From positions 1-24,779 of the forward strand of contig JAJOKY010000023.1 in NCBI GenBank assembly GCA_021129615.1: a stretch of 24,779 bases of DNA, read 5' to 3'. Below the pieces are notes generated by a model. That model searched no databases. It was given only the letters and a program-made list of their open reading frames with translations, and was not told where the DNA came from. The number at the start of each line of letters is the position of its first letter. Position 1 is the stretch's first letter. The DNA is from Minisyncoccota bacterium. Its GTDB lineage: Bacteria; Patescibacteriota; Minisyncoccia; Minisyncoccales; CSSED10-335. The position numbers were made by a program, and so were the translations under genes. Positions 1-23,368 of the stretch are shown in pieces.

Positions 1-207
1 ATCTAATACTACTTGCTTAACTGCCTGCTCTTTTTCTAACTGAAAAGTTTTACAAGATTTAGCAATCTCATTTTCAATCTCTTTTTCGGTCATCTCTAAA
101 GGAAAAGCGTGATTGATTGTTTCGACCTTTTTATTTTTGTCGTAAAATTCTGCTTCTACGACAAAGCGATTTGTTTCTCTCTCTATTTTTGTGATTTTGT
201 AATTCAT
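1..207 (-). CDS. Hypothetical protein, partial (runs off left edge)
   Basis: Not in the ORF track. ATG at 207 opens 69 stop-free codons to base 1 (MNYKITKIERETNRFVVEAEFY...). Its upstream leader closely resembles that of 242..529. Confidence 0.7.
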   Translation of the reverse strand, partial: MNYKITKIERETNRFVVEAEFYDKNKKVETINHAFPLEMTEKEIENEIAKSCKTFQLEKEQAVKQVVLD

Positions 208-241
208 AATTATTGTTAAGAATTAAATGTTTTACAACCTT

Positions 242-529
242 TTAGACATAATAAATATACAAAACCGCATTAGCCCCCGCTCCCTGGTCTAAAGTAACAG
301 AAACTCCATTACTCGTAGTTGGAGCAGAAATCTGTTCCCAATTCTCTGTATCCACACCATCAACCGTGTTGGCAGATAATTTAACAATCTCATCTCCTGA
401 TTGAGCAGTAGCATTATCATACAGAATTACAGTTGTAGCGGCAGTTCCAGCAACTAATCTTGTCCCTACAATCCTAAATTGTCCACTTAATACTCCATTT
501 GTTGAAGCTGTAATTTTTTTAATTGGCAT
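242..529 (-). CDS. Small probable virion structural protein (95 aa)
   Basis: Directly downstream of the capsid gene; Thr/Ala/Gly/Val-rich, beta-strand-like composition. Function inferred from position only. Confidence 0.7.
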   Translation of the reverse strand: MPIKKITASTNGVLSGQFRIVGTRLVAGTAATTVILYDNATAQSGDEIVKLSANTVDGVDTENWEQISAPTTSNGVSVTLDQGAGANAVLYIYYV

Positions 530-566
530 ATTATTTTTCTTCTTTTATTAAGAATTAAACATTTTA

Positions 567-574
567 CGACCTTT
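567..574 (-). promoter_or_regulatory. AAAGGTCG motif
   Basis: Exact motif 37 nt upstream of ATG 529. Confidence 0.6.
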
Positions 575-581
575 ATAAAGA

Positions 582-620
582 AAAGGTTTTATTTTCCACA
601 AGGAAGAAGGAAAAACCTTT
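582..620 (-). terminator. Possible weak terminator/attenuator after the capsid gene
   Basis: On the minus strand AAAGGTTT...TTCC-TTGT-GGAA...AAACCTTT forms a hairpin followed by TCTTT. Confidence 0.35.
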
Positions 621-653
621 AAAAACCTAAATCGTATTCTTATTACCCGTTAC

Positions 654-1835
654 TTAACTAAGGTTACTGTGAATCGCAAAAGCCTCAAGAGCGTTACGGA
701 CTTCTACAGTGTATGTTCCACTTAACATTGCTTCAATCAATCTTCCAGTCTTTGCTAAATCTTCAAGAGCCACAGCATCAGTTTGAAGCGGTCCAACTGT
801 AATCCTATTCAAGTCACCAACAACATAAATATCGTCAGGAACGTGAGGATTAACAATAATCTCTACTTCAAACCCCAAATCAGAAATAAATCTTTCTACA
901 ACATAACCAGCAGATTTACTATCAAAATCCATTCTTCGGTAAGCTTGGTCAAAAGTAGAAATGTTTCTCTTTTGTTTACCACCAACAAGAAGGAACAATC
1001 TTCCACCAGCAACCATACCACCATCATCCCAAATTTGCTTAATACTGGCATTCAAAACACTCGGACTAATTGCTTCAGGAGTAGTATTAGTATTACCACC
1101 TGACTGAGAAACAAATTCAATCAAACCACCAAAAGACGAATAATCAGCAGAACCACCTTCAGTGCCAGACCTAATAGAGTTAATCAAAGCACTATCAAGC
1201 TGTCTCATAAACTCTTTTAATCGGTATGCAGATTGATGAGAGAATTCATTTGGAATAGCAGCGTGGTCAACCGCCTGACGTCTTCGAGTAATGGCAATTC
1301 CATAACCCATTGTCATCAAGTAGTTAAATGGACCAGTTCTTTCAGCAGACCAATCTTCTCCATCTGGTTTCCAAGATTCTTGCTTGGTATGAGCAATAAT
1401 CATTATAGAAAATCCAGTAGAAGGAGAAGTTCCGTGTTCTTCACCAGAAGTAGAACCGTGACCTCTTTCAATTGTTAGGGTATCAGCAGAAACATTAGTT
1501 ACTCTCATTACTTCTGTCTTTCCAGCAGCCGCATCTTTGAACAAAGTTCCAATTTTGAACCTAACTCCGTGTCCAGGGCTAACATCAAGAGAAGTTTCAG
1601 AGGCATCCAAATAACCAGCCGCAGTATTAGGAGTAGTAGCAGTATTCGGATTTAGTTGGTCTTCGATCCAGCTATGCTTTAATTGAGTAGCAACTAAACC
1701 TCCTGCTCCTATCCTTTGAAGCAAAGCAGTATTATCAGTTCTAATAATTTCAGCTAACTCTTCAGACAAATCTAATTTCTTAACATTAGTCGGAATATTA
1801 TAAGCGGGTAGTCCCGTTGCAGTAGATAAAGGCAT
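654..1835 (-). CDS. Major capsid protein (HK97-fold, DUF5309-like) with a beta-rich insertion domain
   Basis: 393 aa, follows a scaffold-like gene. Motifs LDLSEELAEII, HSWIEDQL, GGLIEFV and GTYTVEVRN resemble DUF5309-type capsids. Confidence 0.85.
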   Translation of the reverse strand: MPLSTATGLPAYNIPTNVKKLDLSEELAEIIRTDNTALLQRIGAGGLVATQLKHSWIEDQLNPNTATTPNTAAGYLDASETSLDVSPGHGVRFKIGTLFKDAAAGKTEVMRVTNVSADTLTIERGHGSTSGEEHGTSPSTGFSIMIIAHTKQESWKPDGEDWSAERTGPFNYLMTMGYGIAITRRRQAVDHAAIPNEFSHQSAYRLKEFMRQLDSALINSIRSGTEGGSADYSSFGGLIEFVSQSGGNTNTTPEAISPSVLNASIKQIWDDGGMVAGGRLFLLVGGKQKRNISTFDQAYRRMDFDSKSAGYVVERFISDLGFEVEIIVNPHVPDDIYVVGDLNRITVGPLQTDAVALEDLAKTGRLIEAMLSGTYTVEVRNALEAFAIHSNLS

Positions 1836-21735: not shown

Positions 21736-21741
21736 AATAAT

Positions 21742-21981
21742 ATGATGAGGTGGAAGGGGAAATACCCCTTAAAAACATTTAAAGTTAAAAGTCGTTCCTC
21801 TTTTAATCCTGATACAGGAGAATGGTATTATTGGACAATAGAAATGTGGGATAAGGAAATGTTTTGTGATTGTCCTGCAATAAAAGAATGTCATCATATA
21901 AAAATGAAAAGGGAAGAACTAATAAAAGAGTTTGGAAGTTTGGAAAAGGCAATAGAACATTTTAGAAAAAATAAACAATAA
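21742..21981 (+). CDS. SWIM-type zinc finger protein
   Basis: MFCDCPAIKECHHIK = CxC...CxH. Confidence 0.7.
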   Translation: MMRWKGKYPLKTFKVKSRSSFNPDTGEWYYWTIEMWDKEMFCDCPAIKECHHIKMKREELIKEFGSLEKAIEHFRKNKQ

Positions 21982-21989
21982 AATAATTT

Positions 21990-22163
21990 ATGAAAAAAAA
22001 CTACAAAACAAAACAAAAAAAACTCACTCAGCGATATGAGCAAATTCAAAAAGAAATCCAACAGCTCCAACAAGCTATAAATGAGAAATCTGGAGAACTT
22101 CTTAAACTTCAAGGTGAATATAGGTTATTGGATGAGCTGATGAAGGAAGAAAAACAAAAATGA
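21990..22163 (+). CDS. 57 aa coiled-coil protein
   Basis: Not in the ORF track. MKKNYKTKQKKLTQRYEQIQKEIQQLQQAINEKSGELLKLQGEYRLLDELMKEEKQK*; its TGA overlaps ATG 22160. Confidence 0.75.
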   Translation: MKKNYKTKQKKLTQRYEQIQKEIQQLQQAINEKSGELLKLQGEYRLLDELMKEEKQK

Positions 22164-22399
22164 GACAAGAAAAAATAGAAGCAGAAATTAGAAACATTAT
22201 AAAAAAAGAAAAAATGTCTTCATTTACATCTGACCAAATTTATTTTATAGCAGAAACTTCTTTAAAAGGTATAAAAGAGATTGAAAGGAAAATTAGGGAA
22301 GTCCTTAAGGCAGGGGTAAGAGCAGGAGATGTTATTGAATTTTATCATAAAGGTAAAATAGCGTTTGTTATAAAAATTGTAAAAGAAAAACAAAAATAA
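22160..22399 (+). CDS. Hypothetical protein (79 aa)
   Basis: Coupled ORF on the coding strand. Confidence 0.7.
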   Translation: MRQEKIEAEIRNIIKKEKMSSFTSDQIYFIAETSLKGIKEIERKIREVLKAGVRAGDVIEFYHKGKIAFVIKIVKEKQK

Positions 22400-22403
22400 A
22401 ATT

Positions 22404-23165
22404 ATGGCTTATAATAATTATAATAAAAATGAAGACCTAAATTCATTTATTAAAAGCAATTTTAGTTTTTCTTTCGGTAGCCTTGCTACAATGACATCTG
22501 CTTTTTTGCAACACAAAGAAATATCAAAGAAAGAATTTGATGCTTTAATAGAGAAAACAAAACAAAAAGCAATTCAGCTTAATGTTGATTTGTTTAGATA
22601 TGGTCAAGAAAAAAGATTTGATGAGTTTCCAGAATTAGATGAAAGATTAAAACAAAGATTTGCAGAAGAACAAAAAGAAAGAAAACTTGGTAGATATCAT
22701 TCTTCTGAAATTTGGGGTTTGTTGAATAATAGAGTTCCTGTTAAAAAGTTTTTTAAACCACGAGTTTTTACAGAACAAGAAATGAAAATAATGTATTGGG
22801 GAACGATTATTCATTCAGGTATAGCAAAACTTTTCAATTTTGAAGAAAAAAAATATGAGATTAAAATAGATGACGAGATAACTATTGTTTGTAAAATTGA
22901 TTTAGAATTGGGTAATGATATTTTTGAGTTTAAGACAACTGAAGATATAGATAAGTATTCTACGCTTCCAGATTGGTATAATTTACAATGTCAGTGCTAT
23001 TTAAAAGCTAAAAAACTTAAAGAAATGAAACTTTATATTATTGGTTGGGGATTTGCACGAAAACTTTTTAAGGTTCAATTTGATGAAAATAGATGGAATA
23101 ATATAGTTGAGGGAATTAAAGATTATCACGAGAAAATAAAGAAATTTTGGTCAAAAAAGAAATGA
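22404..23165 (+). CDS. Cas4-like PD-(D/E)XK exonuclease
   Basis: YHSSEI, WGTIIH, CKIDL...IFEFKT, YNLQCQCYL; no four-Cys Fe-S cluster evident. Confidence 0.8.
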   Translation: MAYNNYNKNEDLNSFIKSNFSFSFGSLATMTSAFLQHKEISKKEFDALIEKTKQKAIQLNVDLFRYGQEKRFDEFPELDERLKQRFAEEQKERKLGRYHSSEIWGLLNNRVPVKKFFKPRVFTEQEMKIMYWGTIIHSGIAKLFNFEEKKYEIKIDDEITIVCKIDLELGNDIFEFKTTEDIDKYSTLPDWYNLQCQCYLKAKKLKEMKLYIIGWGFARKLFKVQFDENRWNNIVEGIKDYHEKIKKFWSKKK

Positions 23166-23368
23166 ATAAATTAAAAACAAACCTTAAAATTATAAAAACA
23201 GAAGTTGAAGGAGAATTGTTATTTAGGCAAGAGTTCCGTTGGAGAAACAACAAACCCGTTTGCTTAAAAATAGGGGATGTTATTGAGGTAGAACTTGATA
23301 GTTCCAAAAAATATGCCTATGTCAAAAGAAAAAACAATTACAGAAAGTCAAAGGTCGCATTAAAATAA
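23162..23368 (+). CDS. Hypothetical protein (probable start ATG 23162)
   Basis: ATGA overlap with the nuclease stop. Confidence 0.7.
   Translation: MNKLKTNLKIIKTEVEGELLFRQEFRWRNNKPVCLKIGDVIEVELDSSKKYAYVKRKNNYRKSKVALK
23350..23357 (+). promoter_or_regulatory. AAAGGTCG motif within the upstream CDS
   Basis: 25 nt upstream of ATG 23383. Confidence 0.55.

What the first reader, a model, noticed from the sequence alone, without database searches (positions are those of the whole stretch)
123..23357. Strand-oriented AAAGGTCG motif at fixed distance (25-38 nt) upstream of start codons
Seen: I found 11 exact copies. On the plus strand they are at 15400, 15704, 16075, 18317, 20122, 20457, 21135 and 23350; on the minus strand at 123-130, 567-574 and 8544-8551. 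All are on the sense strand of their arm. Nine lie 25-38 nt upstream of a clear ATG across an A/T-rich spacer. The other two fit the same window to TTG 18359 (34 nt) and to an internal ATG at 93 (29 nt). Several sit inside the tail of the upstream CDS yet keep the spacing. Variants occur before the capsid gene (ATAGGTCG, 36 nt) and the 207 ORF (AAAGGTTG, 27 nt). At an eyeballed GC of about one third, fewer than one copy is expected by chance. Most of these genes lack a classical Shine-Dalgarno. Inference: a non-canonical translation-initiation or standby element. It shares AAAGG with the extended SD consensus but has TCG in place of AGG, so it may pair with a diverged host 16S tail or bind a protein. 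It may also be a host-lineage signature; my unverified impression is that similar leaders occur in Patescibacteria.
Basis: partly seen in the sequence, partly recalled or inferred. Interest (0 to 1): 0.75.

Follow-up and report, generated by a model that had tools for sequence, protein, structure and literature searches.

The report
Host-borrowed AAAGGUCG leader signal in phage
An eight-base signal, AAAGGUCG, sits about 30 bases before the start of a third of this phage's genes. Its ultra-small bacterial host, whose relatives have lost the usual ribosome docking site, uses the same signal, so it is probably a replacement "start here" mark on the messenger RNA that the phage has copied.

Summary
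There are 11 exact AAAGGTCG copies against 0.46 expected. All lie on the sense strand, and nine lie 25-38 nt before a clear ATG.

The motif is not peculiar to the phage. The window is one contig of a 307-kb genome bin. The other contigs hold 10 more exact copies, every one 25-36 nt before an ATG. The genes include GroES, peroxiredoxin and RRM and KH RNA-binding proteins.

The same signal, with A/T-rich spacers, recurs before orthologous genes in relatives of the same family and order, and in related phages. Phylum-wide genomes that keep the CCUCC anti-Shine-Dalgarno (anti-SD) sequence show it only at control level.

The order fits the uL1-less Parcubacteria-type group that lacks the anti-SD. 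None of 10 relatives' 16S tails has CCUCC, and uL1 was not found in 31 of 31 genomes.

The motif lies inside transcripts, not in promoters. It sits 5 to about 95 nt downstream of consensus sigma-70 promoters, yet at a constant distance from the start codon.

My best reading is an RNA-level ribosome-recruitment (standby or enhancer) signal of the host lineage that the phage has co-opted. What reads it is unknown. No rRNA carries the full complement. A 5-base match to the 16S helix 26 (h26) loop is only suggestive.

An earlier follow-up of this scan (e1-5218823) found the same motif in another genome. I found no published description.

The parts
123..130 (-). Exact motif, 29 nt before an in-frame internal ATG (93) of ORF 1-207. 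Doubtful member, because the spacer is not A/T-rich.
235..242 (-). Variant AAAGGTTG, 27 nt before ATG 207.
567..574 (-). Exact motif, 37 nt before ATG 529 (95-aa late gene).
1872..1879 (-). Variant ATAGGTCG, 36 nt before the SU10-type major capsid gene (654-1835). AGGTCG is kept at the same place in related phages.
8544..8551 (-). Exact motif inside the last codons of CDS 8515-10419, 31 nt before ATG 8512. The AGGTCGG core is kept at what appears to be the same gene junction of related phage L076, while the flanks differ.
15361..15389 (+). Perfect TTGACA-17-TATAAT early promoter. Its -10 box ends 10 nt before motif 15400, which places the motif at about +5 of the transcript.
15400..15407 (+). 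Exact motif, 38 nt before ATG 15446.
15647..15697 (+). Stable hairpin (-30 kcal/mol, no U-tract) after gene 15446-15643. The next motif starts 6 nt later, which leaves no room for a promoter.
15704..15711 (+). Exact motif, 35 nt before ATG 15747.
16019..16069 (+). Second inter-cistronic hairpin (-27.5 kcal/mol). The next motif starts 5 nt later.
16075..16082 (+). Exact motif, 38 nt before ATG 16121.
18317..18324 (+). Exact motif, 34 nt before TTG 18359 (clamp-like gene). ATG 18395 is the alternative start, and the choice is not settled.
20122..20129 (+). Exact motif, 36 nt before ATG 20166.
20457..20464 (+). Exact motif, 30 nt before ATG 20495.
21135..21142 (+). Exact motif inside the tail of CDS 20947-21168, 35 nt before ATG 21178.
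23350..23357 (+). Exact motif inside the tail of ORF 23147-23368, 25 nt before ATG 23383.

Best explanation
AAAGGUCG is a signal in the mRNA leader that belongs to the host lineage. That lineage is an order of ultra-small, uL1-less, Parcubacteria-type bacteria whose 16S rRNA has no CCUCC anti-SD.

The signal sits 25-38 nt upstream of the start codon, about where the 5' edge of a 30S initiation footprint lies. An A/U-rich, weakly structured spacer with few AUGs follows it.

I propose that the small ribosomal subunit, or a factor riding on it, reads the signal as an upstream anchor (a standby site or enhancer). The subunit then settles on the first AUG downstream.

Most host genes manage with an A-rich leader alone. 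A subset of genes carries the anchor; most encode small proteins of kinds that are usually abundant (GroES, peroxiredoxin, RRM and KH proteins, pilin, YtxH-like, small membrane proteins).

The phage places the signal before about a third of its genes. These include cistrons inside operons and starts buried in the tail of the upstream gene. In this way it captures host ribosomes.

Shown here: sequence, strand, spacing, conservation, restriction to the lineage, and a position inside transcripts. Inferred: ribosome recruitment.
For: (1) The signal is used by phage and host alike. There are 11 copies in the phage contig. Ten more lie in other contigs of the bin, all 25-36 nt before the first ATG of a real ORF.

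(2) It is conserved in the lineage. The gapped pattern AAAGGTCG-N20-42-ATG against its reversed control gives 22 vs 2 in the own bin. Family members give 15 vs 2, 15 vs 2, 10 vs 3, 10 vs 4, 16 vs 6 and 13 vs 6, with A/T-rich spacers in genomes of many families of the order. In G005 and G006 the motif precedes the same gene families as in the own bin, the RRM, KH, GroES and mechanosensitive-channel-like proteins. Related phages with 65-73% capsid identity carry it before their genes.

(3) It is restricted to the lineage. Most phylum-wide genomes are at or below control, and their listed spacers look like coding sequence. All 27 phylum-wide 16S ends that could be read have CCUCC.

(4) It is RNA-level, not a promoter. 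Copy 15400 lies 10 nt after a perfect -10 box. In groES of three genera it lies about 12-20 nt downstream of the predicted start of a TTGACA-17-TAnAAT promoter. In the RRM gene of six family members it lies roughly 75-95 nt downstream of a TTGACA-N17-TATAAT/TATACT promoter, yet always 24-27 nt before the ATG. Copies 15704 and 16075 start 5-6 nt after hairpins that lack a U-tract. Three copies lie inside upstream coding tails.

(5) Ten of 10 relatives' 16S tails that could be read have no CCUCC, and uL1 was not found in 31 of 31 genomes. Together with the published loss of the anti-SD in uL1-less Parcubacteria (PMC9297842), this creates a need for another signal.

(6) The spacers are depleted of ATG (2 of 19 against 5.7 expected, P=0.035). 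The motif is more accessible than 8-mers of the same composition (unpaired probability 0.56 vs 0.42).

(7) A four-domain S1 homologue is present, which fits binding of A/U-rich leaders.
Against: There is no direct evidence of translation: no Ribo-seq, toeprint or RNA-seq data could be used.

Only about 3-6% of host genes carry the signal. No ribosomal-protein gene or EF-Tu was seen among the carriers. The set could therefore equally be a post-transcriptional regulon.

No rRNA has the full 8-nt complement. SD-like pairing usually gives sliding, degenerate matches, whereas this is a crisp 8-mer, a pattern more typical of recognition by a protein.

The own bin has no 16S, so loss of the anti-SD is inferred from relatives.

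Loss of the anti-SD is much wider in the class than use of the motif, so the link between the two rests on one evolutionary event.
Confidence: 0.55

Rival explanations
1. The motif is the binding site of a lineage-specific, sequence-specific RNA-binding protein. That protein would control the stability, processing or regulated translation of a regulon (stress and envelope genes plus phage genes), rather than act as a general ribosome anchor. An analogy is the organellar PPR proteins that sit on 5' leaders.
For: The 8-mer is crisp with sharp edges: AAA is present in 84-100% of sites with no conservation at -3, and position +9 is G or C in 64% of sites.

The carrier genes look like a regulon, and they include the RRM and KH RNA-binding protein genes themselves across the order. 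That is typical of autoregulation.

A motif-like element (AAAG-N-GUCGA) sits in the 16S 3' trailer but not at the 23S or 5S flanks. Two 4-nt half-sites would suit tandem KH or RRM domains.
Against: No reader protein was identified. The RRM protein is not found in several genomes that plainly use the motif, G013-G016.

The fixed distance to the start codon and the ATG-poor spacer point to the initiating ribosome. A protein reader could also be part of the ribosome, and this rival would then merge with the best explanation.
Confidence: 0.22
2. The mRNA motif base-pairs with the apical loop of 16S helix 26 (UGUCGACC in this order) through GGUCG:CGACC. This would be a replacement for SD/anti-SD pairing that works like the kissing contact between HCV IRES loop IIId and 18S h26/ES7.
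For: The h26 loop holds CGACC in all 11 relatives' 16S, while its stem covaries (GAAG/CUUC, GCAG/CUGC, GUAG/CUAC).

It is among the five best duplex sites in most of the relatives (about -8.7 kcal/mol), and by my reading it is the only one in a hairpin loop; the strongest site, at about 1300, I place in a stem of the head from recalled E. coli secondary structure.

PMC9297842 notes that h26 is unusually conserved in Parcubacteria and that its role is unknown. In eukaryotes, h26/ES7 lies near the mRNA exit and pairs with an IRES loop (PMC7178104).

The 16S trailer element (GUCGAY or GGUUGA) is also complementary to this loop, including through wobble-compatible variants.
Against: Only 5 of the 8 conserved bases are explained. 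The invariant AAA would face stem bases that differ between genomes.

Position +9 is C as often as G, although pairing to the loop U predicts A or G.

The (U/A)UCGACC loop is widespread across the phylum in lineages that have the anti-SD and lack the motif.

I estimate about a 0.1 chance of a 5-6-nt match to some loop by coincidence.
Confidence: 0.13
3. It is a DNA-level element: a promoter, an initiator or operator for a phage- or host-specific transcription factor, or an oriented architectural 8-mer of the Chi or KOPS type.
For: The copies are strand-oriented with the two divergent arms, and GC skew flips at the same place. A/T-rich, -10-like hexamers often precede the motif. In groES the motif lies inside a CIRCE-like operator.
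Against: The distance to mapped consensus promoters ranges from about +5 to about +95, while the distance to the ATG stays at 24-38 nt.

No other position within 50 nt upstream or 50 nt downstream is conserved.

Some copies follow inter-cistronic hairpins by only 5-6 nt or lie inside coding tails.

Architectural 8-mers would not keep a fixed distance to start codons.
Confidence: 0.06
4. The long A/U-rich 16S 3' tail of this order carries a new, distal anti-SD (GUCGAY, about 20 nt after h45) that pairs with the motif. Its more distal position would explain why the mRNA signal sits about 20 nt further upstream than an SD.
For: The trailer element is conserved in the order. In genus g5 the tail UCGAUUUU can pair with AAGGUCGA over 8 bp, two of them G·U (my alignment of the sequences). 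The geometry would account for the spacing of 25 to 38 nt upstream of the start codon.
Against: Pairing fails in G006 (GUCGGAC), which clearly uses the motif. It reaches only 5 bp in most genera, and the AAA is matched in one genus only.

The mature 3' end is unknown. The trailer element also occurs in class members that keep CCUCC.
Confidence: 0.04

Closest known systems
Shine-Dalgarno / anti-Shine-Dalgarno pairing
   Same: It is a short sense-strand element in the mRNA leader, upstream of start codons, enriched before phage genes and before genes of kinds that are usually highly expressed. It shares AAAGG with the extended SD AAAGGAGG.
   Different: It lies 25-38 nt, not 5-10 nt, from the start. 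The core is GGUCG, not GGAGG. Relatives' 16S tails carry no complementary sequence, and their anti-SD is lost. The 8-mer is crisp rather than a set of sliding partial matches.
Ribosome standby sites and A/U-rich S1-dependent enhancers (e.g. MS2 coat leader, PMC5934652; T7 gene 10 epsilon, from my own knowledge)
   Same: It is an upstream, accessible leader segment within reach of the 30S subunit that would raise initiation without being the SD, and an unstructured spacer follows it.
   Different: Known standby sites are defined by lack of structure, not by a fixed 8-mer. Epsilon pairs with 16S nt 458-466, whereas no full complement exists here.
HCV-type IRES loop IIId pairing with 18S rRNA helix 26 (ES7) (PMC7178104)
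   Same: A G-rich mRNA element is complementary to the apical loop of h26, near the mRNA exit of the small subunit.
   Different: That case is eukaryotic and the element is embedded in a large structured IRES. Here the element is short, mostly unstructured and matches over only 5 nt, and the pairing is untested.
SD-less initiation with A-rich leaders in Bacteroidota, and leaderless mRNAs (from my own knowledge; PMC6028130 for gene-start classes)
   Same: The host lineage has A-rich, SD-free leaders. At least one phage gene (20947) looks leaderless.
   Different: Those systems have no discrete conserved 8-mer at about -30.
Protein-defined 5' leaders in organelles (PPR10 type) and the STAB-SD stabiliser of Bacillus thuringiensis cryIIIA (from my own knowledge)
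   Same: A sequence-specific element well upstream of the start codon acts after transcription. STAB-SD is likewise an SD-like sequence not used as the RBS.
   Different: No PPR-like reader was identified. STAB-SD works through the normal anti-SD, which is missing here.

Membership tests
Shine-Dalgarno element | Complementary to the 3' tail of the organism's 16S rRNA | tested here: not met
   In the 10 relatives whose 16S end could be read, the tail lacks CCUCC and has no CGACCUUU; the best match anywhere in the 16S of 11 relatives is 7 of 8. The own 16S is not in the bin.
Shine-Dalgarno element | Spacing of about 4-12 nt to the start codon | tested here: not met
   The spacing is 25-38 nt in phage and host.
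Sigma-70 or phage promoter element | Fixed position relative to the -10 box and the transcription start | tested here: not met
   The offset from consensus promoters ranges from about +5 through about +12 to +20 to about +75 to +95. No second conserved box was found.
Ribosome standby site / translational enhancer | Accessible leader segment upstream of the start, within reach of the 30S subunit | tested here: met
   The position is 25 to 38 nt upstream of the start codon. The unpaired probability is 0.56 against 0.42 for 8-mers of the same composition, and the spacer is about 90% A/T.
Ribosome standby site / translational enhancer | Raises translation initiation of the downstream cistron | not testable with these tools
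h26-loop kissing (HCV IRES IIId type) | Watson-Crick complementarity between the element and the h26 apical loop | tested here: inconclusive
   GGUCG:CGACC gives 5 bp in all 11 relatives. However, AAA and position +9 are not explained, and the loop is not specific to the lineage.
Sequence-specific RNA-binding-protein site | Fixed-length motif with sharp boundaries and an identified reader protein | tested here: inconclusive
   The sharp 8-mer is confirmed. No reader was found, and the RRM protein is not found in several genomes that use the motif.
CIRCE / HrcA operator | TTAGCACTC-N9-GAGTGCTAA inverted repeat before chaperone genes | tested here: met
   This holds only for groES. There the motif fills the N9 spacer, and the right arm is degenerate (GTTTGCTAA). 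Some genomes have the motif without CIRCE (G012, G019) or have both separately (G016). The motif is therefore not itself CIRCE.

The most novel reading that the evidence does not exclude
In bacteria that lost both the anti-SD and uL1, mRNAs and their phages dock on the small subunit through a new contact. The leader 8-mer AAAGGUCG would mimic a conserved element of the pre-16S 3' trailer. It would pair with the apical loop of helix 26 (UGUCGACC), or be clamped there by a platform protein. This would be a bacterial counterpart of the HCV IRES-ES7 contact and a true replacement for Shine-Dalgarno pairing.
Probability: 0.15. Interest if true: 0.9.

Novelty: new variant of a known kind. Interest (0 to 1): 0.72.

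Why it matters
How ribosomes choose start sites in bacteria that have lost the anti-Shine-Dalgarno sequence is an open question. PMC9297842 reports the loss in Parcubacteria but names no substitute.

A discrete, conserved 8-mer at a fixed distance from start codons gives that question a concrete target for mutation. The target is shared by host and phage.

The motif is also practical. It refines gene-start calling in these genomes. It ties orphan phage contigs to their true host order: relatives of this phage are filed in bins labelled as DPANN or methanogen archaea. It also flags foreign contigs inside bins.

That the phage uses the signal about eight times more often per gene than its host fits the familiar pattern of phages adopting the strongest host expression signals.

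Tried and rejected
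RNA evidence: no RNA run holds the contig. Two 'metatranscriptomic' runs from the same sample are probably DNA.

Full-length rRNA pairing: there is no CGACCUUU in 16S with its flanks in 11 relatives, nor in 23S and 5S in 4 relatives.

Extension of h26 pairing: position +9 should be A or G, but it is C 33%, G 31%, A 20% and T 16%.

The 16S tail as a new anti-SD: this fails in G006 and is weak elsewhere.

A general RNase processing signal for stable RNAs: there is no motif at the 23S or 5S flanks.

The motif as a -35 box of leaderless transcripts: the distance to the ATG spreads over 13 nt, and no -10 box sits at fixed spacing.

The RRM protein as universal reader: it was not found in G012-G016 and in others that use the motif.

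Era as reader of the trailer: most CPR (Candidate Phyla Radiation) bacteria have lost Era (PMC10582724).

A conserved local hairpin: alifold of the RRM leaders gave only a gene-specific GGUCG/UGGCC pairing with the start region.

Literature: no paper links the motif or anti-SD loss to a substitute signal.

Taxon names: the atlas search gave no usable taxonomy. Naming the host as Parcubacteria-type rests on the loss of uL1 and the anti-SD together with the literature.

Complex prediction was not used, because it gives no verdict for RNA partners.

Full report
**Observation**

The window holds 11 exact AAAGGTCG copies at the stated coordinates. Shuffles that preserve dinucleotide content give a mean of 0.46 and a maximum of 3.

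The contig has two divergent arms. Genes at 1-14236 are on the minus strand: an SU10-type capsid gene, portal, large terminase and a LysM-bearing lysin-like protein. Genes from 15446 onward are on the plus strand: small early genes, clamp-like, ATPase, exonuclease and RusA-like genes.

- Every copy is on the sense strand of its arm.
- Nine copies end 25-38 nt before a clear ATG, across a spacer that is about 90% A/T.
- Copy 18317 fits TTG 18359, at 34 nt.
- Copy 123-130 precedes an in-frame internal ATG and has an atypical spacer, so it is doubtful.
- One-mismatch copies as a class are at chance level. Only the two placed before starts are credible: ATAGGTCG before the capsid gene and AAAGGTTG before ORF 207.
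- When sites are anchored on AGGTCG alone across 55 non-redundant sites, the two preceding bases are A in 84% and 89%. Position -3 is not conserved, and position +9 is G or C in 64%. The signal is therefore a sharp 8-mer.

**Not a phage peculiarity**

The window is the whole of contig C1 of a 307-kb, 43-contig, 73%-complete bin. The remaining 283 kb hold 10 more exact copies. All ten lie 25-36 nt before the first ATG of a real ORF on the same strand. By my reading of their N-terminal sequences, the genes are:

- GroES
- a 1-Cys peroxiredoxin
- a small NrdD-like protein
- an RRM RNA-binding protein
- a KH protein
- an SPFH protein
- a membrane protein with a mechanosensitive-channel helix (this one confirmed)
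- small acidic or membrane proteins

In an unbiased hexamer screen of 293 host upstream regions, GGTCGA and AGGTCG are the two most enriched words.

One contig of the bin is foreign. C14 has 44.5% GC, carries a classical GGAGG 7-12 nt before seven starts, and has no motif. It serves as an internal contrast.

**Lineage**

Relatives have genomes of 0.3-1 Mb.

- In 10 of 10 relatives whose 16S end could be read, helix 45 is followed by an A/U-rich tail with no CCUCC.
- uL1 was not found in 31 of 31 genomes of the order, whereas it was found in all 14 control genomes.
- This matches the uL1-less, anti-SD-less Parcubacteria subgroup of Tsurumaki et al. 2022 (PMC9297842).
- A four-domain S1 homologue is present.

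I scored the gapped pattern AAAGGTCG-N20-42-ATG against its reversed control:

| Genome | Motif | Control |
|---|---|---|
| Own bin (G000) | 22 | 2 |
| G002 (same family) | 16 | 6 |
| G003 (same family) | 13 | 6 |
| G004 (same family) | 10 | 3 |
| G005 (same family) | 15 | 2 |
| G006 (same family) | 10 | 4 |
| G007 (same family) | 15 | 2 |

Many other families of the order show hits with A/T-rich spacers. Across 120 genomes of the phylum, counts are mostly at or below control and the listed spacers look like coding sequence. All 27 phylum-wide 16S ends that could be read keep CCUCCUUUC.

Within the class, 23 of 35 16S genes that could be read have lost CCUCC. Use of the motif is clear only in the own order and a few other lineages. 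Anti-SD decay is therefore broader than the motif, and the link between them rests on essentially one evolutionary event.

In G005 and G006 the motif precedes the same gene families as in the own bin: RRM, KH, GroES and the channel-like protein. It also precedes genes for a pilin, YtxH-like proteins and small secreted proteins.

Phages related through the capsid protein (65-73% identity) carry AAAGGTCG or AGGTCG 23-40 nt before their genes. At what appears to be the same gene junction in L076, the AGGTCGG core is kept while the flanks have diverged. Three of these contigs sit in bins labelled Woesearchaeota, Aenigmatarchaeota or Methanomicrobia, and two of the three carry the motif. I take that labelling to be mis-binning.

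An earlier follow-up in this scan (e1-5218823) reported the same 8-mer in another Parcubacteria-type genome. My tests here were made independently.

**RNA level, not a promoter**

Four lines of evidence place the motif inside transcripts, with its position set by the start codon.

1. The perfect TTGACA-17-TATAAT promoter at 15361-15389 ends 10 nt before copy 15400.
2. In groES of three genera, a TTGACA-17-TA(G/T)(A)AAT promoter precedes a CIRCE-like operator whose 9-nt spacer is the motif. This puts the motif about 12-20 nt downstream of the predicted transcription start and 31-36 nt before the ATG. Other genera have the motif without CIRCE, or both separately.
3. In the RRM gene of six family members, a consensus-like promoter lies roughly 75-95 nt upstream of the motif. 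The motif stays 24-27 nt from the ATG.
4. In the phage early operon, stable hairpins without U-tracts (-30 and -27.5 kcal/mol) end 5-6 nt before copies 15704 and 16075. Three copies lie inside upstream coding tails.

No other column within 50 nt upstream or downstream is conserved. This rules out a core promoter and makes an operator unlikely.

**Mechanism**

The constant distance of 25-38 nt corresponds to the 5' edge of the 30S initiation footprint, about 35 nt upstream of the start codon, as I recall it from established footprinting work. Two further features fit this:

- The spacers are A-rich and poor in ATG: 2 of 19 contain one, against 5.7 expected (P=0.035).
- The motif is more accessible than 8-mers of the same composition (0.56 against 0.42).

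I therefore commit to an upstream ribosome anchor (standby site or enhancer) that replaces the SD for a privileged set of genes. The phage uses it at about 35% of its genes, against 3-6% in the host.

- Neither 16S nor 23S/5S carries CGACCUUU.
- The apical loop of helix 26 is UGUCGACC in 10 of the 11 relatives' 16S (UAUCGACC in G021), and its stem covaries. It can pair with GGUCG at -8.7 kcal/mol. By my reading it is the only strong site that lies in a hairpin loop.
- h26 is noted as oddly conserved in Parcubacteria. In eukaryotes its loop pairs with HCV IRES loop IIId near the mRNA exit (PMC7178104).
- Against this pairing: the invariant AAA and the G/C at +9 are unexplained. The loop is also widespread in lineages that have the anti-SD and lack the motif. 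I rate the pairing at about 0.13-0.15.
- A same-sense element (GUCGAY or GGUUGA, often AAAG-N-GUCGA) sits about 20 nt after helix 45 in the 16S trailer. It is absent from the 23S and 5S flanks. It is complementary to the h26 loop, and it also occurs in class members that keep the anti-SD. Its meaning is open.
- The crispness of the 8-mer favours a protein reader, free or ribosomal. The RRM protein is excluded as a universal reader. Era is mostly lost in CPR (Candidate Phyla Radiation) bacteria.

**What could not be done**

No RNA data were usable. The host bin lacks its own 16S. Taxon names are hidden, so 'Parcubacteria-type' is an inference from the losses of uL1 and the anti-SD.

**Verdict**

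The feature is real and lineage-wide, and as far as I could find it is undescribed. Its suggestion of pairing with a diverged 16S tail is not.

Noticed in passing
G000 contig C14 (7.3 kb; not in the window): This contig has 44.5% GC. A classical GGAGG lies 7-12 nt before seven start codons, and there is no AAAGGTCG. It is probably a foreign contig in the bin.
   Followed up: partly
window 1836-1879 (-); L076, L077, L078, L079, L137: The capsid-gene leader differs from the others. After the variant motif comes a pyrimidine-rich stretch and then CCTCC, the anti-SD sequence itself, 13-35 nt before the ATG. CCTCC is kept in five related phage contigs. Its function is unknown.
   Followed up: no
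window 20911-20949 (+): A perfect TTGACA-16-TATAAT promoter ends 8 nt before ATG 20947, so this 73-aa gene is probably translated from a leaderless mRNA.
   Followed up: no
window 14354-14361 (+ strand RNA from promoter 14314): The putative small RNA contains UGACCUUUAG, a 7-nt complement of the motif. It is the only GACCTTT in the window that is not the reverse of a motif copy. It lies in a predicted stem. It could be an anti-motif regulator or a coincidence.
   Followed up: partly
L135, L136, L137 (genome contigs): Close relatives of this phage are filed in MAGs labelled Woesearchaeota, Methanomicrobia and Aenigmatarchaeota. L135 and L137 carry the bacterial-order motif before their genes; L136 has none. 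The archaeal labels probably reflect mis-binning.
   Followed up: partly
L026-L055 (groES loci of relatives): The CIRCE-like operator of this order is TTAGCACTC-AAAGGTCGn-GTTTGCTAA. The leader motif occupies the normally free 9-nt spacer, and the right arm is degenerate.
   Followed up: partly
L009-L019 and L142-L187 (16S loci): The 16S 3' trailer carries a conserved GUCGAY or GGUUGA element about 20-45 nt after helix 45. It is complementary to the h26 loop and is absent from the 23S and 5S flanks. CCUCC is lost in 23 of the 35 class 16S genes that could be read.
   Followed up: partly
window 15647-15697, 16019-16069, 16693-16758: Strong inter-cistronic hairpins without U-tracts separate the early cistrons. 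They look like processing or stability elements rather than terminators.
   Followed up: partly
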